Shown here one piece after another: positions 188 to 18,208 of a DNA stretch of 56,181 nt. Source of the stretch: a virus (taxonomy: Duplodnaviria > Heunggongvirae > Uroviricota > Caudoviricetes); IMG/VR virus record IMGVR_UViG_2565956618_000007. The stretch is one strand, 5' to 3'. Each line of letters opens with the position of its first letter. Positions within the stretch are counted from its first letter, which is position 1. Below the pieces are notes generated by a model, which saw nothing but the letters and a program-made list of their open reading frames with translations, was not told the DNA's origin and did not search any database. Both the position numbers and the translations under genes were made by a program.

Positions 188-1483
188 TTAATTTTTCATT
201 GCTTCGTTATGGGGCATGGTTGGGGCAAACTCGCTTAACTGTGTATTTAACAAAGCTACCTGTGCATTATTGTTTTCAGACATCCATTTTCCGTATACCT
301 GAAATACCATTTGCGCATCTGCATGGCCCATCTGGTTTGCTATAAATGCCGGGTTAGCACCAGCTGTCAGCGACCAGCAGGCATAAGTATGTCTCGACTG
401 ATATGATTTTCGATGGCGGAGTCCGGCACGTTTTATCGCTACGTCCCACATCTGCCTTATTGAGTCAACGGTAAAATGGTCACCATAATTTTTTACTCTC
501 GCTGACACTTCAGGTTGAAAAACAAAGGTGCATTTTTGTTTTTCTGTTCTGCCATACTCTCTGAGGTGAACATCAATGATATGCTCTTTGCTCAGTCTCG
601 TTAATGTCATCTGACTCCGGAGAGCGTCGATTGCTGGCTTAATAAGATGAATGACCCGATTGGTTCCCGCCTGTGTTTTTGGTACCGTGAAACGGTCTTT
701 TGCTAAATTTCTCCTGATCATCATTGTTCCATTTTTCAGATCTATGTCCTCCCATCCAAGTGCACACAGCTCACCAGGGCGAACGCCAGTATAAACAGAA
801 ACACACCATAAATTTTTTGCTTGCTGATTTCTGCACGCATCGATAAGACGGATAAATTCTTCCCGCGAAAGAGGATCCGGAATGGTTCTTGATTCCTTTA
901 ATGGCGAGATCCCCTTAAACGGATTATCTGCCAGGTAACCGTTATCAACACCAAACTGGAACACGGCGTTAAGATTTGTCATGTAATTATTTACAGTTAC
1001 AGCCGATCTCCCTGGTTGTGTAACAATATAGTTACTTTTGGGGATCTGGTATCCAGTCAGTAACTCTTTACGAACCTCCAGTAATTTTTCTTTATTAATC
1101 GATGAGGCAAGATTTTTTTCACCGATTATGCTCAGGATATTTTTGATGACGGCACGGTATGTGTTGAGTGATGTTTTGGCGACTTCAGTTTCTTTCAGTG
1201 CCAGAAATTTTTCAGCCAGTTCTTTTATGGTTAAATCTTGTCGGGCCTCACCAAATTTTTCCAGATTGCGTGAGGAGGGAAACTGTTTTGCATAGTCGAA
1301 AACACCAGTTTTTATTGCGTAACAAACAGAGGAGCGTAGTTCACCTGCAACGCGCCTGTTTTTTGCTGTGTCAGGAACCCCCAGATTTTCCCTGACTCTT
1401 ACGCCTTTATAAACAAACCAGATACGTAATTTCCCTCCATGGTTTTCCACGCCTGTCGGATATTTCATTTCAACTTCTCTCAT
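188..1483 (-). CDS. int: Tyrosine recombinase / phage integrase (Rac IntR-like)
   Basis: 431-aa ORF; C-terminal catalytic region (…LRHRKSYQSRHTYACW…GHADAQMVFQVYGKW) fits the R..H-x-x-R..Y integrase signature; N-terminus resembles IntR-type integrases from memory. Alternative start at 1468 (MKYPTG). Confidence 0.9.
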   Translation of the reverse strand: MREVEMKYPTGVENHGGKLRIWFVYKGVRVRENLGVPDTAKNRRVAGELRSSVCYAIKTGVFDYAKQFPSSRNLEKFGEARQDLTIKELAEKFLALKETEVAKTSLNTYRAVIKNILSIIGEKNLASSINKEKLLEVRKELLTGYQIPKSNYIVTQPGRSAVTVNNYMTNLNAVFQFGVDNGYLADNPFKGISPLKESRTIPDPLSREEFIRLIDACRNQQAKNLWCVSVYTGVRPGELCALGWEDIDLKNGTMMIRRNLAKDRFTVPKTQAGTNRVIHLIKPAIDALRSQMTLTRLSKEHIIDVHLREYGRTEKQKCTFVFQPEVSARVKNYGDHFTVDSIRQMWDVAIKRAGLRHRKSYQSRHTYACWSLTAGANPAFIANQMGHADAQMVFQVYGKWMSENNNAQVALLNTQLSEFAPTMPHNEAMKN

Positions 1484-1502: not shown

Positions 1503-1754
1503 TCAAGTAAGATGACGTCTTGGTCTCGCTGATGCCTGGCGCTCAATCCAGCGATCAATTTCTTCCAGGTTGTAAAAGCATGGACTGTTATCCCATGGCA
1601 TACCGTCATGAGCGACATGCTTATATTCCCTTCCTTCCATAAACGATTTTTCCCGGGCCTTTTTTAACGTACCTTTTTTTATTCCTTTCAGCGCAATTAA
1701 CTGCTCTTCGGATACCCATTTGCCGGGAGAGACAATCATGATTACTTCGCTCAT
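1503..1754 (-). CDS. xis: Excisionase-like small protein
   Basis: 83-aa basic ORF immediately upstream of and co-directional with int, 19-bp spacing; position and size typical of Xis. No sequence-level identification. Confidence 0.6.
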   Translation of the reverse strand: MSEVIMIVSPGKWVSEEQLIALKGIKKGTLKKAREKSFMEGREYKHVAHDGMPWDNSPCFYNLEEIDRWIERQASARPRRHLT

Positions 1755-1826
1755 CGATTTCTTTATCTCTTACATCAGACGAGCGCCGGTTGCAGAATAC
1801 CAGTCACAACCGGCGACAGTTGAACA

Positions 1827-4334
1827 TTAAGAATCAGCCTGACTCGGGATCAGTTTTTGCCAGATAACTGAAACGTATTTTGCCTGGTAACGGGCGTCAT
1901 CAAGTGCATTATGGCGCTCACCTTCGAATGGAATAGCCGTTCTGGCATCGAAGTCTATGGCTTTCCCCAGCTCAACGATTGTGCGTACATCGCGATCGTT
2001 GTAGTAACGCCACGGGCAGGGGATCCCCTGCCGTTCGTATGAACGGCGCAAAATCGTGTTGTCGAAGTTGGCTCCATTTCCCCAAACCTGAACAAAAAAT
2101 TCACCGGAGTTTTCGTCGATAAATTCCCGCAATTGTAACAGTGCATCATCTAACGGGATTTCATCGGTCATAATGGCAGATTGCGCTTCGCGTGATTGCT
2201 TAAGCCACCATTTAATGGTGTCCCGATCAATGACTCCGCCAGCAGTTTCCAGATCGATAGTCTTACTAAATTCCGGTCCCATATCTCCGGTTTGCGGATC
2301 GAAAAATATTGCACCTATTGAGATGATCGGGGCATCAGGATTTTTTCCCATGGTTTCAAGGTCGATCATTAGATGGTCACACGCCCTGCTGGTGGATGTG
2401 ATTTCGTGATGACCGTTCACCTTAATTGGGTGATCTGCCGTCTCGCCAGTTTCATTATCGCTATTGTGATGCTGATTGCCGCCAGTGTTCTCCTTGTGTG
2501 GATGTTCAGCGCCTTGCATTTCCTCCGGATCATCTTCCTGAACTTCAACCTGATACTCTTCATCGAATGTTTCCTGGTATGTTGCGTCGCCCATCACCGC
2601 GCCACAATCAGGGCAGTTGCCGCCGCCGGTCTGACCGCAGGCGGTGCAGACTTTTTCCACTTCCTGTTGCGCTACTGGTTCAGGCTGTTTCGTTACTGGC
2701 TCGTTTTGTAACGCATTTGGACTGTTTTGTTCCGCTTTTTGGTAGTTCCGTTCCGATTCATGCTGGTTCTGGTTCACAGAATCGCGGGTCTGGATCCCCT
2801 TAACCCATTTCGGATCATTCGGGTCACTAATCCCTTCAACAAATTCACCACGTGATGCAGCAAGCAACTTATCAGCGTCAGGCTGGCTGATATTGGCTGC
2901 CTGCATAATTTTGTTTACTTCGTCAGCGGTAACTTTTATCGGCTCTGGTTGTTCTGAATCTTCAGCGGTATCTACATTTTGCGGTAAGCCCGTGTATGTG
3001 CCATTTTTTCGGGCAAAATATTCTTCTTTTGTGATTTCAGTGGCGCCAGCAGCCAGTGCCTTATCCAGACCAGAAAGTTTGTTTGCGCGACCGTATTTTT
3101 CTCCGTCCTTATCTGCGAAGAGGAAATAGAACGGCCCCTCACGCTCTACAGATGGTTCAGCTTCCGGCGCGGTTTCATTTTTTGGGATATCAGATACCTC
3201 AGTTTCCACTGCATCAGTTTGTGTTTCTGATGACTGGAGAACATCAACAGTGCCCAGGTCTGTTTCTTCATTCTCAAACACGCCCTTTGTCGTCAGGTAT
3301 TCGCAGATATATTTGTTCAGTGCTACGGGATCTTTGTGAATGTCGATCGGACGCTCACGGACAAGGCCAAAAATAGTCTGGCGGTCGTAGCGAAGGGCAT
3401 CAGGCTGTTTGCGCATTGATGCCGAGATACGCTTCCAGTCTTCGCGGTCGTTGTCGATAACTTCTTTTTTTGCCCAGCGATGGATGCTGCCGTCAATGTT
3501 TCCGGCATCCACATCACCAGGCCAGAGAGCGTAGGCCAGTTCGTCATCCAGTGTTTTCCATGTCTGCTTGTATTCGCGATGAATGGCAGCAATGACCGGG
3601 CTGATTTTTCCTGTTGAATTTTCAGTGTACTGTTGATTGGCTCTGGCGCGGGCGAGATCAACAACAGACGTGTATTTTCCGGTTTCCTTGCGTTCACCTT
3701 CGCGACGTTTTTTCCAGATGCGCATCTCTGCCTGAATTTCGGGCCATTTAGCACCAGGAATACATTTATGCTTAACCCACCCAATGGCGTGCAACTTAAG
3801 CTCCGGATACATGGCGTTAACTTCTGGCATTTTCATCAACGCTTCAACGATATGTCCGTCGAATGTTGCCATGTCTTCCTGCAACAATTCCTGTGCGCTA
3901 ATAACCATATCAACGGTGATGTTTTCACATGTGTCGAACTTAACCATGACAGCGTTCTGTACTTCAGGGGCCAGCTTGTCAAAAGTGACGTTCATCGGAT
4001 CGGATTCAGTCTCAACCGGGACAAAAGAAGCAGACTCCTCATCCCAGCGGTTTTCCTGCATATATTCAGCATCCCATGAATCGAGGGCAGGGCGGGGTAT
4101 GCCAGGTTTATCCTCGCAGACAATAAATTTATAAGCGCAGTCCTGAGCAGCCGGATAATGTTCCAGGAATTGCCAGTGAAATTTTGCTCGAGCACGGCGT
4201 TCGTCGCCAGCTTCAATGGCTGTGGCTACAGCCACAGCGCCTTCTTCCCTTGTTGCCAGTTCGTCAGGAATAGCGGCGCAAATAAAGACTTTACTCATTT
4301 GTTTTAACCTCATGACAGATTTAAGGATGAACAA
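1827..4334 (-). CDS. RecE-like (exonuclease VIII family) protein with C-terminal DnaQ/DEDDh-type 3'-5' exonuclease domain
   Basis: 835-aa ORF; internal segment KLLAASRGEFVEGISDPNDPKWVKGIQTRD matches remembered RecE sequence; C-terminus carries D-x-E (MIDLETMG), FD and H-x4-D (HNALDDA) motifs typical of DEDDh exonucleases. No recT-like gene adjacent. Confidence 0.8.
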   Translation of the reverse strand: MFILKSVMRLKQMSKVFICAAIPDELATREEGAVAVATAIEAGDERRARAKFHWQFLEHYPAAQDCAYKFIVCEDKPGIPRPALDSWDAEYMQENRWDEESASFVPVETESDPMNVTFDKLAPEVQNAVMVKFDTCENITVDMVISAQELLQEDMATFDGHIVEALMKMPEVNAMYPELKLHAIGWVKHKCIPGAKWPEIQAEMRIWKKRREGERKETGKYTSVVDLARARANQQYTENSTGKISPVIAAIHREYKQTWKTLDDELAYALWPGDVDAGNIDGSIHRWAKKEVIDNDREDWKRISASMRKQPDALRYDRQTIFGLVRERPIDIHKDPVALNKYICEYLTTKGVFENEETDLGTVDVLQSSETQTDAVETEVSDIPKNETAPEAEPSVEREGPFYFLFADKDGEKYGRANKLSGLDKALAAGATEITKEEYFARKNGTYTGLPQNVDTAEDSEQPEPIKVTADEVNKIMQAANISQPDADKLLAASRGEFVEGISDPNDPKWVKGIQTRDSVNQNQHESERNYQKAEQNSPNALQNEPVTKQPEPVAQQEVEKVCTACGQTGGGNCPDCGAVMGDATYQETFDEEYQVEVQEDDPEEMQGAEHPHKENTGGNQHHNSDNETGETADHPIKVNGHHEITSTSRACDHLMIDLETMGKNPDAPIISIGAIFFDPQTGDMGPEFSKTIDLETAGGVIDRDTIKWWLKQSREAQSAIMTDEIPLDDALLQLREFIDENSGEFFVQVWGNGANFDNTILRRSYERQGIPCPWRYYNDRDVRTIVELGKAIDFDARTAIPFEGERHNALDDARYQAKYVSVIWQKLIPSQADS

Positions 4335-4390: not shown

Positions 4391-4582
4391 TTAAAGACCT
4401 GCCGGGATTTCGATATTATCCTGGTGAATAACTTTATCGACCGGGTAACAGTTACCGGGAATTTTCTGTTCGGTTGCTGCAGTCATACACTCCTGCATTG
4501 TCCTGTGAACACTGACTGCAATATCAACTGGCTCTCCGGAAACAAGAAAAACTGTCAGAACAAGCACAAATGCTGAATTCAT
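4391..4582 (-). CDS. ydfD: YdfD-like small lysis protein with N-terminal hydrophobic helix
   Basis: 63-aa product from internal Met (MNSAFVLVLTVFLVSGEP…); start overlaps stop of upstream gene (ATGA coupling); size and position after dicB match Qin ydfD. Confidence 0.55.
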   Translation of the reverse strand: MNSAFVLVLTVFLVSGEPVDIAVSVHRTMQECMTAATEQKIPGNCYPVDKVIHQDNIEIPAGL

Positions 4583-4767
4583 TGTGCACATCCTTTTGGC
4601 ATCAGACGTAAACGAGCCAGCATTGAAACAATGCATATTTTATTTAATAGCTCCCGTTCTTGTTTTCTCTTGTTAATGGCATCTTCAGTAAATACTGGGT
4701 TACTGATAGTGACACCAATTTCAAAACAACCTTCAGACGTATTAACGTTTGGTAATAACGTTTTCAT
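4579..4767 (-). CDS. dicB: DicB-like cell-division inhibitor
   Basis: 62-aa product from internal Met (MKTLLPNVNTSEGCFEIG…); lies immediately downstream of the DicF sRNA, as in the dicB operon. Confidence 0.6.
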   Translation of the reverse strand: MKTLLPNVNTSEGCFEIGVTISNPVFTEDAINKRKQERELLNKICIVSMLARLRLMPKGCAQ

Positions 4768-4935: not shown

Positions 4936-4994
4936 TAAAAAGGGCGGCAGAGCAGTCACGGAGTAAAACTGATACCGCCAAACGTCACCAGAAA
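4936..4994 (-). ncRNA. dicF: DicF small RNA with intrinsic terminator
   Basis: Reverse complement reads TTTCTGGTGACGTTTGGCGGTATCAGTTTTACTCCGTGACTGCTCTGCCGCCCTTTTT, which matches DicF as remembered, including the GC stem and U-run; sits between the upstream ORF and dicB. Confidence 0.75.
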
Positions 4995-5253: not shown

Positions 5254-5829
5254 TTAAGGATTCATTAAGCAATGTCGCAACCACCAATAAATCCGCTTAA
5301 GAACATGAAAATTGATTACTGGTATAAAGCGCTTACAGTTGTTGGCGCTGCGTTGTTTGTCTTTAATGGAACGTCTTTTTTTGACAGATATCCCGTTGTT
5401 CCATTGGGTTTTTTGTCCTCCGGCATCTTTTTTATTGGTTTGGGGGAGTGGATTAATCACCCTCTCAAAGTGAGATTTATTGGCCCTGGAGTTTGGACTC
5501 GTGGATATAATCGTTTTTCGTGCGCACTCGGTATCATCTTCGACATACTTGGTTGTTTCCTGATTGTTACAGGAGTCGTCAAGTTCTTCTGATGTAAAAC
5601 CGCAAATGGGGCACGTAACGGGAATTTTGAAAAGCGTTTCTCCGGGTTCCAGAACAAAATTTTCTGCGGTCTGATTTTGCTTCTCATATTTGTGCTCCGC
5701 GTCATTGTGAGAGCACATTCTTATTCTGAGTGCCTGTTTAAACTCACTGAAGCTGAGAGCTTCTTCGCCTTCGGCAAGGCCTTCGAAGTATTCTTCGTAA
5801 GCCTTTTCCATGATTGTGTCGAAATCCAT
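5254..5829 (-). CDS. Hypothetical dicB-operon protein (ydfABC position); acidic N-terminal domain with Cys-x2-Cys motif
   Basis: Start at MDFDTIMEK with RBS AGGTGAG about 7 nt upstream; N-terminal ~90 aa look protein-like (…KIPVTCPICGF…); C-terminal basic tail is less convincing but no stop occurs before 5254. Confidence 0.5.
   Translation of the reverse strand: MDFDTIMEKAYEEYFEGLAEGEEALSFSEFKQALRIRMCSHNDAEHKYEKQNQTAENFVLEPGETLFKIPVTCPICGFTSEELDDSCNNQETTKYVEDDTECARKTIISTSPNSRANKSHFERVINPLPQTNKKDAGGQKTQWNNGISVKKRRSIKDKQRSANNCKRFIPVINFHVLKRIYWWLRHCLMNP
5272..5592 (+). CDS. Possible small membrane protein encoded antisense within 5254..5829; may be a shadow ORF
   Basis: 106-aa ORF with three hydrophobic stretches; fully embedded antisense in the Lys/Asn-rich tail of the opposite ORF, which could create the hydrophobicity artefactually. 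Confidence 0.25.
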   Translation: MSQPPINPLKNMKIDYWYKALTVVGAALFVFNGTSFFDRYPVVPLGFLSSGIFFIGLGEWINHPLKVRFIGPGVWTRGYNRFSCALGIIFDILGCFLIVTGVVKFF

Positions 5830-6099
5830 ATCACTCACCTGAGTTTCTTTCCAGCCAGCGACGGGCACCATTTTCGGTTTTAAACGTTTTGCTTTTGGTA
5901 TACGTCATCGCGGTGAACGTGCCGTCCTGGTTGGGGAACACGCCACATACCAGAGATTCGCTGTTGCCAAGATCGATAGTATCCATGCTGACCTCATTTC
6001 CCCTTAACGCCGGGGTAGCGGAACTGTTTGCTGAGAACACCGTGCGGTGTCTTGATGGAAAGTAATTTAGAATAACCTAACATGAGAGGCAAGTGTTTT

Positions 6100-6154: not shown

Positions 6155-6562
6155 TTATTTTATTGATTTATTTTTACGCGCTTTAAGCATTTCTTCGAAG
6201 AGTTTGTTGAAGTTTTCTACTCTTGCGCGCATTTCAGACAGCAAGGCTTCCTGCTCGGAAGATGGAAGAGCATCGAATAATTCGATCAATTCTTTGTGGT
6301 TGGGAGTTAGCTCTGTTTCCACATGAAGTTCTTGTGCAGGCACTGGTGCCTTGTCTTCGTCACCAAACATTAGCCATGTAGGTGAGCACTTCAGAGCATC
6401 CGCTAAAGCAAACAATCGTTTTCCGACTGGCTGGGTTTCGTCTCTTTCCCATTGTGAAATTGTGACGTGAGCAACTCCAGCGAGGCGCGCAGCTTCTCGT
6501 TGTGTTAAGCGTAATTCTTTTCGTCGCGCCAGAACTCGCTGGCCTAGGGTTCTTGTATCCAT
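6155..6562 (-). CDS. dicA: CI-type HTH repressor, DicA-like
   Basis: 135-aa ORF; HTH region (LTQREAARLAGVAHVTISQWE) and C-terminal …CSPTWLMFGDEDK…ELIELFDALPSSEQ…EMRARVENFNKLFEEMLKAR match remembered DicA; divergent from Cro-like gene. Confidence 0.85.
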   Translation of the reverse strand: MDTRTLGQRVLARRKELRLTQREAARLAGVAHVTISQWERDETQPVGKRLFALADALKCSPTWLMFGDEDKAPVPAQELHVETELTPNHKELIELFDALPSSEQEALLSEMRARVENFNKLFEEMLKARKNKSIK

Positions 6563-8981: not shown

Positions 8982-10769
8982 TTAAGTCTGAGCCTCACTC
9001 TCTTGGCCATAAGTGGCTTGCCAGTATCTCGCCGTAGGGTTCATTAGAATGTGCAATACAAGCCACCATGCAAAAATGCAGGGAGGTTGATTGTAGTAAC
9101 CGGCAGGCACATATCCGTGAGCTAGTTGATTTCGTAAATCACCATAGATTTTATCTACCAGTAAGGCCTGAAGATTGCCAATTATGTCTACGCCGAAAGC
9201 TTCAATAATCAGTGGATTATCTAGTAATCCCTTGAGTCCATTTCGCTCTTGCGAACCGTCCCCGTGAAGCTGCGATGGTTCCTCACCTTTAATTTTAGCC
9301 ACATATCTCAGACTATTTTCGATCTGGGGAATCAACACGTGGCATGCCGTCATAAAATCTCCATTGAAACCGCAAACCATACCCTTGATGAAAAACTCTT
9401 CATGCCCAAACGGGATGAAGGGATGATTGATGAACATATCGCGAAAAAACGCCTCCGAGATTGGATATTTCATTGTGATCTCATCTGTAGCAGGAATAAT
9501 TTGCCCAGCTACTGCCAACTCATGGTCGATACGCATTCTCGTCATCATTATGGGCCAAATAACTGCCCCATTTGCATCATCAATCCCCAATCCTGCGGGT
9601 ATGCGAGCAAGTGTCATTCCCTCATGATCAATATGTGTTGATCCAAACATCCAAGCTATGCTGTTGGCCTTTTGTTCTATTGCTTGAGCCTTAAGTCTCT
9701 CAATGCTGGTTGGCCGACAGACCAGCATCGCAAGTCTGAAAACCATATCAAACAAATCTCTTCCGACTACCCGACTCTTGGCTTGATGGACAATCTCACT
9801 AATATCTTGAGGGGGAGACTGAAGGATAGACATCTGGTGACGGGATTCGATTTGGTAATCACGCATTTCTTCATACAGCGCAAGACGTTCTATTCGGGTT
9901 CCTGGAATATTAGCCAGTGCTTCAATAGCATTCTGCATGCAGGCTGCCGAAATCATACCGCCATCTTGGAATTTTGACTCTTCCAGATGTGTATCGGCAA
10001 GAAGCCGCCAGAATTCAAACTGTGTATCTCTGTCACAGCACCTATTCGCAATCGGGATTGCGGTTTTACAGGCATCGACGGCAAATGAAAATAATTTTTG
10101 AGCCAGATAGTTTTTTGTCAGAAACAGGAGTTCCTGGGCAATAAAAGATGGCTCACTCACTTTACAGTCGATATCGAGTTGCAGGAGTCGCAGCGGATAA
10201 GGTGAATCGCCTTGTTCTCTGGTACGTTCATACTCTGCTAGTAGATGTGCCGAAAGCTGATCAAATTCATCCCTGAAATCAGTATGCTTTCGAAAAAAAC
10301 AACACAGCCTAAGCGCACGCTCTAGGCGTTCTAAAGCACTAACCCACGTCCCTTGCGATGTCATAATAGCTATACTGGACGCATAATAAGCACGGACTGC
10401 CAGCAAAGGAAAACGGATTCCACCAATTTTACGAACCCAAAGTGTATCAGCAATACGAGCTTGAAGTTCGGGTAGCTCTATCGTCGGGCAAAATTGAGAA
10501 AGTACCTCCAGCGACAACCCGTTAATGTCATCCGGAATTGCAGATCTACCTTGGCTGCTTTGAAAGCACGGACCAAATGGTACCTGTGGATTTTCGGGAC
10601 GAAAGTGAAAACCGCAAATATGGGTTAGCAGTCTTATCTCCGCTCTTCCATCACCTAGGCTAGAAAGATACTTTGTGATATCAAAGCAGGTAACTGGCAG
10701 CTTACTCTGGATTAAGGGGGATAAATCAATAGTGTTAAGTTCGTCGAGGCTGATATTAATATCGTCCAT
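8982..10769 (-). CDS. Large hypothetical protein with C-terminal HEPN-like R-x4-H motif; candidate defence / abortive-infection moron
   Basis: 595-aa ORF on the strand opposite to flanking phage genes, in a visibly AT-richer segment flanked by long intergenic regions; C-terminal …DKIYGDLRNQLAHGY… fits the HEPN R-x4-6-H signature. Confidence 0.8.
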   Translation of the reverse strand: MDDINISLDELNTIDLSPLIQSKLPVTCFDITKYLSSLGDGRAEIRLLTHICGFHFRPENPQVPFGPCFQSSQGRSAIPDDINGLSLEVLSQFCPTIELPELQARIADTLWVRKIGGIRFPLLAVRAYYASSIAIMTSQGTWVSALERLERALRLCCFFRKHTDFRDEFDQLSAHLLAEYERTREQGDSPYPLRLLQLDIDCKVSEPSFIAQELLFLTKNYLAQKLFSFAVDACKTAIPIANRCCDRDTQFEFWRLLADTHLEESKFQDGGMISAACMQNAIEALANIPGTRIERLALYEEMRDYQIESRHQMSILQSPPQDISEIVHQAKSRVVGRDLFDMVFRLAMLVCRPTSIERLKAQAIEQKANSIAWMFGSTHIDHEGMTLARIPAGLGIDDANGAVIWPIMMTRMRIDHELAVAGQIIPATDEITMKYPISEAFFRDMFINHPFIPFGHEEFFIKGMVCGFNGDFMTACHVLIPQIENSLRYVAKIKGEEPSQLHGDGSQERNGLKGLLDNPLIIEAFGVDIIGNLQALLVDKIYGDLRNQLAHGYVPAGYYNQPPCIFAWWLVLHILMNPTARYWQATYGQESEAQT

Positions 10770-11279
10770 GTCGTCACCTTGATGATTTGTTAATGCGGGG
10801 GCAACATTAATAAATGTACTTGAGACCGCAATTTGTCGATGGAGCCAACATTTATAACTATGTGCTTCTACCCTCTGAATTTTTACATGTGAATTGCTAG
10901 CTTGAATAGCTCTATCATTATATACGTGGCACTAAATTATGGCTGTTTTTCGCTCAAAGCGGACTAGAAGGTTAGCTTGTGTCGGACTTTGCGTATTAAA
11001 AGAAGTGCTGGTGGTGACTAGTGGTTGTGCCCCATTTCCACAGAAAAAATCAGAGAAACTATACCCAATAGTTGTATTGAATCACTGACGAGACAGCCTC
11101 ATATTCATCAGGACTGGTCTACGTCCAATACAGGAGGTTGTGGTGCTGGTTCTCAAATGTGCGCTGGCTATTACGGCTGTAATGGCGATTTATTGTCTTG
11201 CTATTGTTCTTATGGATCGCCTTTCTGACTGATTTCACATTGGCGAGGTAACGGTAGTTAAGTAGAATGGCTGCGGGTG

Positions 11280-11400
11280 CTTGAGGCTATCTGCCTCGGG
11301 CATGAACACCAACGGCAGATAGAGAAAAGCCCCAGTTAACATTACGCGTCCTGCAAGACGCTTAACATTAATCTGAGGCCAATTTCATGCTAGACATATG
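11280..11400 (-). ncRNA. Expected location of a Sok-type antisense RNA for the hok locus (not demonstrated)
   Basis: By analogy with hok/sok loci the antisense RNA overlaps the leader/upstream in-frame extension of hok; no promoter or terminator confidently identified. Confidence 0.2.
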
Positions 11401-11443
11401 TAGGTTAGCCTCTTACGTGCCGAAAGGCAAGGAGAAGCAGGCT

Positions 11444-11599
11444 ATGAAGCAGCAAAAGGCGATGTTAATCGCCCTGATCGTCATCTGTTTAACCGTCATA
11501 GTGACGGCACTGGTAACGAGGAAAGACCTCTGCGAGGTACGAATCCGAACCGGCCAGACGGAGGTCGCTGTCTTCACAGCTTACGAACCTGAGGAGTAA
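11444..11599 (+). CDS. hokD: Hok/Gef-family type I toxin
   Basis: 51-aa peptide MKQQKAMLIALIVICLTVIVTALVTRKDLCEVRIRTGQTEVAVFTAYEPEE matches remembered HokD/RelF; ORF track shows an in-frame upstream extension from 11387 (mok-like). Confidence 0.85.
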   Translation: MKQQKAMLIALIVICLTVIVTALVTRKDLCEVRIRTGQTEVAVFTAYEPEE

Positions 11600-14362: not shown

Positions 14363-14904
14363 GCTTTAAATGGGGCAATAGAGATATTGAATCTCATCCC
14401 GGGATAAACATTGGCAGTTGAAGGTCCACGCGAACCATTTATCCAGCAAAATTCCACGCGTAATCCTGTGGTAATTTCTTCTGCATCTCGAAGATTGAGA
14501 GCTGAAACGTGAAGCTGGGCATCGATACGCCATCGGATGGGAATATAAGACCTTTGCTGCTTTTGTAGTCAAAGTTTTTGACAATTCCTGTCATTTTAGG
14601 GGACAGAAAAACTCCTTAATACTGATAACCTGGTGCACCATACACACGTTCCTGGAGAAAACTACTTTTTTGATAGGATTGAAGGTGGCTGGATGTCTAA
14701 AATAAACATTGCTTCATATGTTCAACTATGAGTTAATGACTGCGTCGGTTTGAAGAACAGACGATATACGAAGTAGTTTACTAAAGCAGTTCTCATTTCA
14801 GGTGTTATTCACTTATTCCTTCTTTGAGTCTCTCCAATTAAGTACGAAGTCGTTTCTGTTATGCAAACCATTTATGCCGAAAGGCTCAAGTTAAGGAATG
14901 TAGA

Positions 14905-15120
14905 ATGTCAAATAAAATGACTGGTTTAGTAAAATGGTTTAACGCTGATAAAGGTTTCGGCTTTATTTCTCCTGTTGATGGTAGTAAAGATGTGTTTGTG
15001 CATTTTTCTGCGATTCAGAATGATAATTATCGAACCTTATTTGAAGGTCAAAAGGTTACCTTCTCTATAGAGAGTGGTGCTAAAGGTCCTGCAGCAGCAA
15101 ATGTCATCATTACTGATTAA
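14905..15120 (+). CDS. cspB: Cold-shock protein CspB-like
   Basis: 71-aa product [21 protein letters not shown]… with RNP motifs; long upstream leader typical of csp genes. Confidence 0.9.
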
Positions 15121-15401
15121 AATTCATCGCTCGTCTGTATACGATAACGAAGAAGGCTGATGCCTGAGTAGAGATACGGACAGAGTAGTGAATATTGGAT
15201 CTCTTTAATAAAAAGTAAGGAGGTCCAATACATGAAACAATGGCTAGTATATTTGGCAAAATCTTAATCAGGAAAAGTATGCTAACCATTGTGGTGAAGT
15301 GCAGGTTTGCTGCATGAATAGTTTCACAGCAGAAGCTAACTGCTGGCATCGCAAAACAAAGTGCGTAAGTGGATGACTCCCACAAAAAGCACCACAATCT
15401 C

Positions 15402-17430: not shown

Positions 17431-17792
17431 GGTAATATTAAATCGGAACATTTACATCGCGGAATGTAAAATTTAAATAAAAAGGACTCTTCCATGAGCC
17501 AAAATTCCTGAAATCTTAAGGGTAAGATAAAAGGTCTTAATCAGAATGACACGTTTTATTAATAAATAAAGCTATTCTTTCATTGCTGTGTTTTTCTTTA
17601 CAAAAGTAATCCTTGCTATGGGTGGTTAATCATGCGTTAATGGTGTTCTGGTTTGTTACAAATTTATCTGAAGCAGTCATTGTTATAATTTTATTATTTG
17701 TACCTCTTGAGATTTCCTTGTTGGTTTTTCTCTCTGATATTTTTTTTCGGACCATTCTGCCCAAGGGCTAATTTCTTCAAAAGGTAATAATT

Positions 17793-18005
17793 ATGTCTAA
17801 CAAAATGACTGGTTTAGTGAAATGGTTTAACCCTGAAAAAGGTTTTGGTTTCATCACGCCGAAAGATGGCAGCAAAGATGTGTTTGTCCATTTCTCAGCA
17901 ATTCAGAGCAACGATTTCAAAACATTAACTGAGAATCAGGAAGTTGAATTTGGTATTGAGAACGGACCTAAAGGTCCTGCCGCTGTTCATGTAGTGGCGC
18001 TTTGA
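17793..18005 (+). CDS. cspI: Cold-shock protein CspI-like
   Basis: 70-aa product [34 protein letters not shown]…; RBS AAGG upstream. Confidence 0.9.
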
Positions 18006-18208
18006 GGTAGACAATATTACAAACCATATTCACTTTAGATGCCCGTGTTGTCATGGTTCCCAGTATAGAACATCATCTTTTGATGTTTCTGACATGAATC
18101 CTTTCGGGGCAAAATGTATCTTTTGTAAATCAATGATGATTACATTTGATAATATTTCACAATACTTAAATGCCAGCCGTCTGTCGTTGGATTTAAAAAA
18201 GTGAAAAT

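What the first reader, a model, noticed from the sequence alone, without database searches (positions are those of the whole stretch)
1827..4334. RecE-like protein carrying a DEDDh 3'-5' exonuclease domain and lacking a RecT partner
The central region matches remembered RecE, but the C-terminus carries DnaQ-like motifs (DxE, FD, H-x4-D) rather than the RecE 5'-3' nuclease fold. No recT-like annealase gene lies between it and xis, where RecT sits in Rac. Function (recombination or anti-defence nuclease) is therefore unclear.
Basis: partly seen in the sequence, partly recalled or inferred. Interest (0 to 1): 0.4.

Follow-up and report, generated by a model that had tools for sequence, protein, structure and literature searches.

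The report
RecE-scaffold prophage exonuclease with DexA-type nuclease
This is the intact form of the E. coli K-12 pseudogene ydfE, a very common prophage gene that keeps the middle of the RecE recombination nuclease but ends in a T4 DexA-type 3'-5' exonuclease and has no annealing partner; it is annotated in databases, and I found no experimental test of it.

Summary
The gene (window 1827-4298, minus strand, 823 aa; the real start is the ATG at 4298, not the TTG at 4334) lies in an intact Qin-like prophage of E. coli ATCC 25922. It is the full-length allele of the K-12 pseudogene ydfE.

Residues 474-622, which include a CxxC...CxxC zinc ribbon, are 68% identical to Rac RecE. Residues 262-336 are distantly related to RecE. 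Neither RecE's N-terminal domain nor its PD-(D/E)XK nuclease is present. The C-terminus (aa 642-813) is an Rv2179c-like/DexA-type DEDDh exonuclease with all five catalytic residues. No annealase is encoded anywhere in the window.

Across 72 related loci the link is absolute. All 37 genes ending in DEDDh lack recT and are followed by xis-int. All 35 genes ending in PD-(D/E)XK are followed directly by recT. Both N-terminal types occur with both nucleases, so the scaffold is a shared module with exchangeable ends.

The most likely function is a stand-alone 3'-5' DNA exonuclease made from the DicA-repressed early operon. It is not a two-component recombinase. The biological role is inferred, not shown.

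The gene occurs in about 65% of complete E. coli genomes and is already annotated, so interest is moderate.

The parts
1827..4298 (-). Complete CDS, 823 aa. It is the intact allele of the K-12 pseudogene ydfE (b1577). PGAP names it 'exonuclease' or '3'-5' exonuclease'.
   Evidence: The window is 100% identical to E. coli ATCC 25922. Residues 1-256 are 100% identical to K-12 YdfE up to the IS2E insertion. It matches phrog_2082 end to end. Whole-gene dN/dS is 0.25-0.30.
3594..4298 (-). N-terminal YdfE-type region (aa 1-235), made of two folded domains (aa 1-96 alpha/beta, aa 102-207 helical). Function unknown.
3279..3566 (-). Core helical module of about 95 aa (aa 245-340). It is shared by all members of the scaffold family, including Rac RecE aa ~255-350.
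   Evidence: Alignment A1 covers 15 diverse proteins. AF2 pLDDT is about 90. BLASTP to RecE gives 25% identity, E 2e-5. dN/dS is 0.13-0.18.
3147..3272 (-). Acidic, disordered linker (aa 343-384).
   Evidence: AF2 pLDDT is below 50. dN/dS is 0.4-0.8.
3003..3137 (-). Small beta-hairpin/helix domain (aa 388-432) with the motif GPFYF...GRANK...EIxxEEYxARKNG. It is the most strongly constrained part of the protein and is absent from Rac RecE.
   Evidence: The columns are nearly invariant in alignment A4. AF2 pLDDT is 82-91. dN/dS is 0.055-0.07.
2433..2879 (-). RecE-like segment (aa 474-622): the DKLLAASRGEF...KWVKGIQTRD motif, a CxxC-x7-CxxC zinc ribbon (C551, C554, C562, C565; nt 2604-2648), and an acidic tail. 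It ends at the same junction where the nuclease domain of RecE begins.
   Evidence: It is 68% identical to RecE 454-588, E 2e-67. A 123-nt stretch is 92% identical to recE at the DNA level (H112).
1860..2375 (-). DEDDh 3'-5' exonuclease domain (aa 642-813) of the Rv2179c-like/T4 DexA family. Catalytic residues are D646, E648, D746, H796 and D801.
   Evidence: Pfam PF16473 E 2.5e-67. The closest solved protein is T4 DexA (8KEL), E 1.5e-6. It is 39% identical to the EcD-like protein.
1503..1754 (-). Excisionase gene, immediately downstream. The 72-bp gap leaves no room for an annealase.
   Evidence: PGAP 'excisionase family protein'; sequence of the gap.
188..1468 (-). Tyrosine integrase, the last gene of the leftward operon, next to host rspB.
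   Evidence: PGAP annotation.
4391..4767 (-). ydfD (lysis protein, 4391-4582) and dicB (division inhibitor, 4579-4767), directly upstream in the same operon.
   Evidence: PGAP annotation. The gene order is the same in K-12 Qin, mEp460 and vB_EcoS-640R1.
4942..4993 (-). DicF small RNA, which marks this as the dicBF operon.
   Evidence: Rfam RF00039, 76.7 bits, E 1.1e-15.
6155..6562 (-). DicA-type repressor at the head of the early region. It is the expected controller of the leftward operon that contains the exonuclease.
   Evidence: PGAP HTH protein in the position of K-12 dicA. Control of the operon is inferred from knowledge of Qin, not tested here.

Best explanation
The gene encodes a mosaic early-operon protein. 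A RecE/YdfE-type scaffold (N-terminal YdfE domains, a ~95-aa core module, a small conserved beta/alpha domain, and a zinc ribbon with an acidic tail) carries at its C-terminus a Mg2+-dependent DEDDh 3'-5' exonuclease of the T4 DexA/Rv2179c family. That exonuclease stands where RecE has its 5'-3' PD-(D/E)XK nuclease.

The nuclease and the annealase behave as one exchangeable cassette. Where the PD-(D/E)XK domain is present, recT follows. Where the DEDDh domain is present, recT is gone and xis-int follow directly.

I therefore read this protein as a stand-alone nuclease and not as half of a two-component (exonuclease plus annealase) recombinase. On prophage induction, relief of DicA repression would express it together with dicF, dicB and ydfD. 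The scaffold would bring the nuclease to its substrate, and the nuclease would trim or degrade DNA from free 3' ends, as DexA does in T4.

Shown here: the architecture, the intact catalytic residues, purifying selection, the absence of any annealase, and the covariation with recT.

Inferred: DNA rather than RNA as the substrate, what the scaffold does, the timing of expression, and the biological pay-off. The pay-off could be breakdown of host or competitor DNA, or end processing that feeds host recombination.
For: The catalytic residues D646, E648, D746, H796 and D801 align with those of T4 DexA, and DexA is the closest solved protein.

No annealase, lambda Exo or Gam is present in the window.

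In the survey of 87 loci, 37 genes ending in DEDDh with at least 1 kb downstream had no RecT, and 35 genes ending in PDDEXK all had RecT immediately downstream. Both N-terminal types behave the same way. The pattern holds after clustering at 80% identity: 6 DEDDh clusters against 7 PDDEXK clusters. Individual contexts agree. Downstream of DEDDh genes there are only xis-like genes, six different integrase families, and then host genes.

All four combinations of N-terminus and nuclease exist.

The folded parts are under purifying selection, with dN/dS 0.055-0.33.

The gene is present in isolated, viable phages: HannyBb, Tritos, mEp460 and Evi. It is present in 3537 of 5426 complete E. coli genomes.

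Against: No activity, substrate or phenotype has been measured for this protein. The Pfam family is named after an RNase (Rv2179c), so an RNA substrate is not excluded.

The scaffold has no recognisable fold relative, so its proposed targeting role is a guess.

The same scaffold is attached to recombination enzymes in its relatives, and DexA itself takes part in double-strand-break repair during intron homing. A recombination-related role with host proteins therefore remains possible.

The surveyed loci are related prophages of Enterobacteriaceae, so the counts are not independent events.

Expression from the DicA-controlled operon is taken from knowledge of K-12 Qin and was not tested. The consensus scan found no convincing internal promoter or terminator.
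Confidence: 0.55

Rival explanations
1. It is an HREX-type exclusion nuclease. Like the E. coli DexA homologue EcD, the DEDDh domain would selectively degrade 5-hydroxymethylcytosine DNA of T-even phages, protecting the lysogen or the induced cell from superinfection.
For: PMC12153337 reports that plasmid-borne EcD protects E. coli from T4 and degrades T4 DNA but not unmodified dsDNA. I rebuilt EcD from the paper's primers. It is a 189-aa stand-alone PF16473 protein that is 39% identical (E 2e-38) to this C-terminal domain, and it is itself prophage-encoded. The neighbouring gene dicB is known for phage exclusion (my own knowledge).
Against: The gene sits in the repressed lytic operon, so it is not expected to be made in a lysogen. 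The residues that paper ties to 5hmC recognition are not clearly kept: DexA W152 aligns with Tyr and D169 with A780. DexA D90, whose absence the paper uses to define the defence type, aligns with D718 here (the alignment in these loops is uncertain). PADLOC gives only a generic DEDDh match at E 1.7e-5. The 640-aa scaffold has no counterpart in EcD.
Confidence: 0.15
2. It is a recombination or repair nuclease that works with host functions (RecA, RecFOR, SSB) or with an annealase supplied by another prophage. It would trim 3' ends or flaps during recombination-dependent replication or double-strand-break repair, and the RecE-type scaffold would serve the same role as in RecE.
For: It occupies the slot before xis-int that recE-recT and exo-bet occupy in Rac and lambda. 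It shares the core and zinc-ribbon segments with RecE. Relatives of the scaffold carry PDDEXK plus RecT. Other relatives carry a C-terminal domain with a weak Rad52-like motif, and at least one of them (P0151, the only one whose context I looked up) is followed by Sipho_Gp157. DexA contributes to intron homing in T4 (PMC12153337 abstract). [quoted passage not shown]
Against: A 3'-5' exonuclease destroys the 3' single strands that annealases and RecA use. No DEDDh-type locus retains any annealase. The Rad52-like assignment is unconfirmed.
Confidence: 0.15
3. It is a 3'-5' exoribonuclease. Like Rv2179c/RNase AS, or the ISG20-like TONDO defence nucleases, it would trim RNA 3' ends. Possible targets are host or phage transcripts, sRNAs such as DicF, or RNA-phage genomes.
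For: The Pfam family is defined on the M. tuberculosis exoribonuclease Rv2179c. RefSeq often names the protein '3'-5' exoribonuclease'. DEDDh nucleases with auxiliary domains on mobile elements defend against RNA phages (PMC13344964). A weak RNase_T match is present at E 4e-4.
Against: The only solved relative found by sequence is the DNA exonuclease DexA. The EcD homologue acts on DNA. The scaffold is otherwise attached to DNA enzymes. The TONDO authors state that their genes are distinct from other defence DEDDh domains, and nothing links them to PF16473.
Confidence: 0.12
4. It is a decaying, functionless remnant of a recET module in defective prophages.
For: K-12 carries it as an IS2-disrupted pseudogene. 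Many truncated fragments exist in the databases.
Against: The reading frame is intact and all catalytic residues are present. dN/dS is well below 1 in every folded domain. The gene is present in plaque-forming or induced phages. Full-length copies occur in 65% of complete E. coli genomes.
Confidence: 0.03

Closest known systems
Rac prophage RecE (exonuclease VIII) with RecT
   Same: Both sit in the same place in the leftward early operon before xis-int. They share the ~95-aa core module (25% identity) and the zinc-ribbon/acidic segment (68% identity). The domain boundary lies at the same point, where the RecE nuclease domain starts.
   Different: RecE has the PF06630 N-domain and a PD-(D/E)XK 5'-3' nuclease and is followed by recT. 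This protein has YdfE_N/C domains and a DEDDh 3'-5' nuclease and has no annealase. It scores 277 bits against the NCBIfam equivalog cut-off of 1269.
Bacteriophage T4 DexA (exonuclease A; PDB 8KEL/8KEN)
   Same: DexA matches the same C-terminal domain (phmmer E 1.5e-6), and all five catalytic residues align. It is the closest solved protein. I did not scan DexA itself against Pfam. DexA is a phage 3'-5' DNA exonuclease.
   Different: DexA is a 227-aa stand-alone protein of a lytic phage with extra loops. Identity is only about 24-28%. DexA W152 and D169 are not clearly conserved. DexA has no scaffold.
EcD / HREX (E. coli DexA homologue, PMC12153337)
   Same: It belongs to PF16473 and is 39% identical to this C-terminal domain. 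It is also prophage-borne.
   Different: EcD is a 189-aa stand-alone protein in a P2-like early operon next to a Dam methylase. Its claimed 5hmC specificity has not been tested for this protein. It has no scaffold.
Stand-alone PF16473 exonucleases of temperate phages (e.g. Escherichia phage SKA5, Yersinia phage YeP1)
   Same: They are 55-59% identical to the C-terminal domain. They lie upstream of the integrase, one to several genes away, with no annealase annotated in the regions examined.
   Different: They are about 190 aa long with no N-terminal scaffold.
Lambda Red (Exo-Bet-Gam) and other two-component SynExo recombinases
   Same: They occupy the same operon position and belong to the same general class of phage DNA-end enzymes.
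   Different: They need an exonuclease of 5'-3' polarity paired with an annealase. Neither feature is present here.
M. tuberculosis Rv2179c (RNase AS)
   Same: It is the founding member of the Pfam family that the C-terminal domain matches.
   Different: It is a bacterial housekeeping exoribonuclease. No direct sequence hit to it was obtained in the PDB searches. Its substrate is RNA.

Membership tests
RecE / exodeoxyribonuclease VIII (NCBIfam NF007259 equivalog) | The full-length match reaches the curated equivalog cut-off. | tested here: not met
   276.9 bits against a cut-off of 1269. Only profile positions 271-600 of 877 are matched.
RecE / exodeoxyribonuclease VIII | C-terminal PD-(D/E)XK 5'-3' nuclease domain (PF12684/DUF3799). 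| tested here: not met
   Present in K-12 RecE at aa 615-850. Absent here. No similarity of aa 628-823 to RecE.
RecE / exodeoxyribonuclease VIII | N-terminal Exonuc_VIII domain (PF06630). | tested here: not met
   No PF06630 hit. Residues 1-235 have no similarity to RecE.
RecE / exodeoxyribonuclease VIII | Shared central region (core module and zinc-ribbon segment). | tested here: met
   BLASTP E 1e-60. Residues 474-622 are 68% identical, and the core is 25% identical.
Two-component SynExo recombinase (exonuclease + annealase) | An annealase gene (RecT, Red-beta, Erf or Rad52-like) adjacent or elsewhere in the phage. | tested here: not met
   The gap to xis is 72 bp. tblastn with RecT and Bet is negative on the whole window. 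PGAP and PHROGs show none. None of 37 related DEDDh loci has one.
Two-component SynExo recombinase (exonuclease + annealase) | Exonuclease of 5'-3' polarity that leaves 3' single-stranded tails. | tested here: not met
   The only nuclease domain belongs to the DEDDh superfamily, whose characterised members are 3'-5' exonucleases. The polarity itself was not measured.
DEDDh (DnaQ-like) exonucleases, Rv2179c-like/DexA family (Pfam PF16473) | The Pfam gathering score is reached over the full model. | tested here: met
   226.4 bits against 27; model positions 2-177 of 177.
DEDDh (DnaQ-like) exonucleases, Rv2179c-like/DexA family (Pfam PF16473) | Catalytic residues D-E-D-D plus the His of the h subtype. 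| tested here: met
   D646, E648, D746, D801 and H796 align with DexA D7, E9, D119, D191 and H186. They lie in columns that are invariant or nearly invariant across the 29 sequences.
DEDDh (DnaQ-like) exonucleases, Rv2179c-like/DexA family (Pfam PF16473) | Metal-dependent 3'-5' exonuclease activity. | not testable with these tools
   This needs an enzyme assay.
HREX / EcD modified-DNA defence nuclease (PMC12153337) | Conservation of the DexA W152 and D169 equivalents that are proposed to read 5hmC. | tested here: inconclusive
   W152 aligns with Tyr, with a Trp two residues earlier. D169 aligns with A780, with Asp residues nearby. The loop alignment is unreliable at 24-28% identity.
HREX / EcD modified-DNA defence nuclease (PMC12153337) | Loss of the tetramer-forming Asp (DexA D90). 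| tested here: not met
   DexA D90 aligns with D718 here, and S87 aligns with P715. The same caveat about the alignment applies.
HREX / EcD modified-DNA defence nuclease (PMC12153337) | Protection against T4 and selective cleavage of 5hmC DNA. | not testable with these tools
   This needs plaque assays and nuclease assays.
YdfE family (Pfam PF27430 YdfE_N, PF27432 YdfE_C) | The N-terminal region belongs to the YdfE families. | tested here: met
   Residues 1-256 are 100% identical to K-12 YdfE. Homologues at 88-94% identity carry both families in the precomputed Pfam data (names). The local Pfam copy lacks these models.

The most novel reading that the evidence does not exclude
The RecE/YdfE scaffold could be a general delivery platform of lambdoid prophages. 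It would bring interchangeable DNA-processing heads to one common target: a 5'-3' nuclease with RecT, a 3'-5' DEDDh nuclease, a third domain with a Rad52-like motif, or a fourth unknown domain. On this reading the DEDDh version, present in about two thirds of E. coli genomes, would perform an annealase-independent function that has not yet been described. Examples would be conversion or destruction of DNA ends to evade RecBCD, or to eliminate competing DNA. It would not be a crippled recombinase.
Probability: 0.3. Interest if true: 0.55.

Novelty: new variant of a known kind. Interest (0 to 1): 0.38.

Why it matters
RecE has been used for decades in recombineering, yet its first ~560-600 residues are still described as a domain of unknown function (PMC11611040).

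This gene shows that part of that region is a separately evolving module. The module is kept under purifying selection while the catalytic end is swapped for a nuclease of opposite polarity, and recT comes and goes with the nuclease. That gives a clean natural experiment for asking what the scaffold does.

It also flags a 3'-5' exonuclease found in most E. coli strains, including Stx-phage-carrying lineages, for which I found no experimental study in the searches I ran. RefSeq names it inconsistently ('exonuclease', '3'-5' exonuclease', '3'-5' exoribonuclease'), and several phage records call it 'exodeoxyribonuclease VIII' or 'exonuclease VIII'. Those last two names are wrong for this protein.

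Finally, the analysis shows that the published 'bacterial' defence nuclease EcD is itself a prophage gene of the same domain family.

Tried and rejected
1. A canonical RecE nuclease or a hidden recT. I searched with Pfam, NCBIfam, PHROGs and tblastn. Neither was found.

3. The idea that relatives P0136, P0151 and P0152 carry a Rad52-like annealase domain. Pfam Rad52_Rad22 gave only E 0.004, below the cut-off. A PDB profile search was negative. The AF2 model had low confidence (pLDDT 62), and Foldseek found nothing. I keep this as an unconfirmed lead.

4. A known defence-system assignment. PADLOC gave only a generic CRISPR-associated DEDDh model at E 1.7e-5.

5. Literature. Searches for Rv2179c with phage, for ydfE, and for PF16473 found no functional study of this protein. 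One search was wasted because 'RecE' matched 'receptor'.

6. One broad alignment (A1) was too divergent for the locus finder. The genome-contig scan with A2 returned only 7 loci. Most survey loci therefore come from the viral-contig scan with the Exonuc_VIII-type core, which biases the sample towards Enterobacteriaceae prophages.

7. The first homologue search returned only near-identical E. coli proteins. Diversity came from the representatives search.
Full report
**Where the window comes from.** The first 9 kb are 100% identical to the chromosome of E. coli ATCC 25922. RefSeq annotation of that region shows a complete lambdoid prophage inserted between rspB and ydfJ, the site of the cryptic prophage Qin in K-12. 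The leftward early operon reads: DicA-type repressor, ydfA, a ydfB-derived ORF, DicF sRNA (Rfam 76.7 bits), dicB, ydfD, the gene in question, xis, int.

**The observation.** The ORF runs from 1827 to 4334 on the minus strand. PGAP starts it at the ATG at 4298, which has a GAGG ribosome-binding site upstream, giving 823 aa. I use the 823-aa numbering throughout.
- Pfam finds one strong domain, PF16473 (Rv2179c-like 3'-5' exoribonuclease), at aa 642-813 with E 2.5e-67.
They align with the catalytic residues of T4 DexA, which is the closest protein with a solved structure (8KEL, E 1.5e-6).
- NCBIfam's RecE equivalog matches only its middle (profile positions 271-600 of 877), at 277 bits against a cut-off of 1269.
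- Direct comparison with K-12 RecE gives E 1e-60. Residues 474-622 are 68% identical to RecE 454-588 and contain a CxxC-x7-CxxC zinc ribbon. Residues 262-336 are 25% identical. Residues 1-235 and 628-823 have no similarity.
- RecE's own PF06630 N-domain and PF12684 PD-(D/E)XK nuclease are absent here.
- The first 256 residues are 100% identical to K-12 YdfE, which is cut off by IS2E. This is therefore the intact ydfE gene.

**No annealase.** Only 72 bp separate the stop codon from xis. tblastn with RecT, Red-beta, lambda Exo and Gam finds nothing in the 56-kb window apart from the RecE-like centre. Every prophage CDS has a PGAP name, and none is an annealase. I also scanned ten unassigned proteins and ORFs, mostly from the early region, with PHROGs. 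They came out as a replication initiator, a Ren-like protein, a CII-like protein, an HNH endonuclease, a head protein, a small terminase subunit and proteins of unknown function.

**How common it is.** A copy covering at least 80% of the gene is present in 3537 of 5426 complete E. coli genomes, with up to ten places per genome. It is also in isolated phages: HannyBb, PhiR42_1, Tritos, mEp460, Evi, and the PPompW phages of Stx2a-carrying strains. PHROGs has a family for the whole protein (phrog_2082). Newer Pfam releases have YdfE_N and YdfE_C families for its N-terminus. RefSeq calls it 'exonuclease', '3'-5' exonuclease' or '3'-5' exoribonuclease', and several phage records call it 'exodeoxyribonuclease VIII'. 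So the gene and its architecture are already in databases. What I could not find is any experimental study.

**A modular family.** A search of 1.8 billion representative proteins, followed by Pfam scans and context look-ups, shows a mosaic family.
- The N-terminus is either YdfE-type or Exonuc_VIII-type.
- A ~95-aa helical core module is common to all members, including RecE (alignment A1).
- A small domain with the motif GPFYF...GRANK...EEYxARKNG, and the zinc-ribbon segment, are each present in some members and absent in others.
- The C-terminus takes one of four forms: the DEDDh nuclease; the PD-(D/E)XK nuclease; a third domain with a weak Rad52-like motif (P0136, P0151, P0152); or a fourth unknown domain (P0130).
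- All four combinations of the two N-termini with the two nucleases exist. P0123 has the RecE N-domain with DEDDh. P0139 has YdfE_N with PD-(D/E)XK.

**The nuclease and recT travel together.** I fetched 87 loci with the core module and classified them by tblastn.
- Of 37 genes ending in DEDDh with at least 1 kb of downstream sequence, none has a RecT-family gene in the locus.
- Of 35 genes ending in PD-(D/E)XK, all have one immediately downstream.
- After clustering at 80% identity the split is 6 clusters against 7, with the same result.
- The hand-checked contexts agree. Rac has recE-recT. P0139 is followed by a RecT-family protein at Pfam E 2e-36. The DEDDh-type genes in mEp460, vB_EcoS-640R1, L010, L016, L017 and L018 are each followed by xis-int.
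- Downstream of DEDDh-type genes there are only xis-like genes, six different integrase families, and then host genes.

The loci are related prophages, so these are not independent counts. Even so, the pattern crosses both N-terminal types and several integrase families.

**Is it functional?** Against the alleles of mEp460 and two E. albertii prophages, dN/dS is as follows:
- 0.09-0.27 in the N-terminal domains
- 0.13-0.18 in the core
- 0.055-0.07 in the small aa 385-440 domain
- 0.23-0.33 in the DEDDh domain (ignoring one comparison with almost no substitutions)
- 0.4-0.8 in the disordered linker

**What it most likely does.** The enzyme class is secure: a DEDDh 3'-5' exonuclease. The closest characterised relatives act on DNA. 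T4 DexA is one. EcD is the other, and I reconstructed it from the primers in PMC12153337 as a 189-aa stand-alone PF16473 protein. It lies in a P2-like prophage early operon and is 39% identical to this domain. Stand-alone versions that are 55-59% identical lie upstream of the integrase, one to several genes away, in other temperate phages, and no annealase is annotated in those regions either.

Three facts point the same way: recT is lost whenever this nuclease is present, a 3'-5' enzyme removes the 3' tails that annealases need, and the gene is kept under selection. I therefore read it as a stand-alone DNA exonuclease of the induced prophage, not as half of a recombinase. Expression with dicB and ydfD under DicA control is inferred from K-12 Qin. 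The role of the scaffold and the biological pay-off are also inferred.

**Rivals.**
- The HREX exclusion model rests on a homologue and on one paper. The residues that paper links to 5hmC reading are not clearly conserved here, and the Asp whose loss defines the 'defence type' appears to be retained.
- A recombination role with host proteins is suggested by the company the scaffold keeps, but it is opposed by the polarity of the nuclease and by the absence of any annealase.
- An RNA substrate is suggested by the Pfam name and by the recent TONDO work on ISG20-like nucleases. It has no specific support.
- A dead remnant is contradicted by selection, by the intact catalytic residues, and by presence in viable phages.

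**Verdict.** The finding is correct as an observation and fair in its interpretation. The object is very common and already annotated, which keeps the score moderate. What this analysis adds, and what I did not find in the papers I searched, is that the PD-(D/E)XK nuclease and recT behave as one unit that the DEDDh nuclease replaces on a shared scaffold under purifying selection. That turns the long-standing question of what the non-nuclease part of RecE does into something that can be tested by comparison.

Noticed in passing
window 8982-10769 (-): A 595-aa DUF4209 protein lies on the opposite strand between the replication genes and hokD. It matches the PADLOC candidate defence model PDC-S39 at E 2e-102, so it looks like a moron-type defence gene.
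   Followed up: partly
window 5254-5871 (-): A 205-aa ORF has its first ~48 residues from YdfB (phrog_2061). The rest is an extra CxxC-containing region. The whole ORF matches phrog_35040 end to end, E 1e-148. PGAP annotates only a truncated ydfB pseudogene here, and ydfC is missing relative to K-12.
   Followed up: partly
proteins P0136, P0151, P0152; loci L015 and L037: These relatives of the scaffold carry no nuclease. Their C-terminal domain has the motif KKSLTDALKKALSLLGFSADVWLG, with a Pfam Rad52_Rad22 hit at E 0.004, below the cut-off. P0151 is followed by a Sipho_Gp157 gene. PHROGs labels this family (phrog_2489) 'exonuclease', probably by association. The fold search was inconclusive.
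   Followed up: partly
protein P0130; loci L012-L014: This 702-aa relative has YdfE_N/C, the core and the GPFYF domain. Its C-terminal ~250 aa match no Pfam family and only phrog_26058 of unknown function. It also lies directly before xis-int.
   Followed up: no
L127 5679-6269 (-) and neighbours: The published 'bacterial' anti-T4 nuclease EcD (HREX paper) corresponds to a 189-aa PF16473 protein. It is encoded in a P2-like prophage early operon, with a Cox-like gene upstream and a ParE-like gene and a D12 Dam methylase downstream. It is therefore phage-borne rather than a chromosomal host gene.
   Followed up: yes
window 1785-1814 (-): In the 72-bp gap between the exonuclease stop codon and xis there is an 8-bp GC-rich inverted repeat (GCCGGTTG ... 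CAACCGGC) with a 14-nt loop and no T-run. It could be an RNA processing or attenuation site.
   Followed up: no
gene-internal, window 1827-4298: Synonymous divergence between alleles varies about 80-fold along the gene. dS is 0.008 in the DEDDh domain and 0.66 in aa 385-440 for the same pair of alleles. This shows recent recombination breakpoints inside the gene.
   Followed up: partly
window 11275-11449, 14744-15136, 17647-18032 (+): The prophage carries a sok antitoxin RNA next to hokD. It also carries two cspA-type thermoregulator leaders in front of its cold-shock genes.
   Followed up: no
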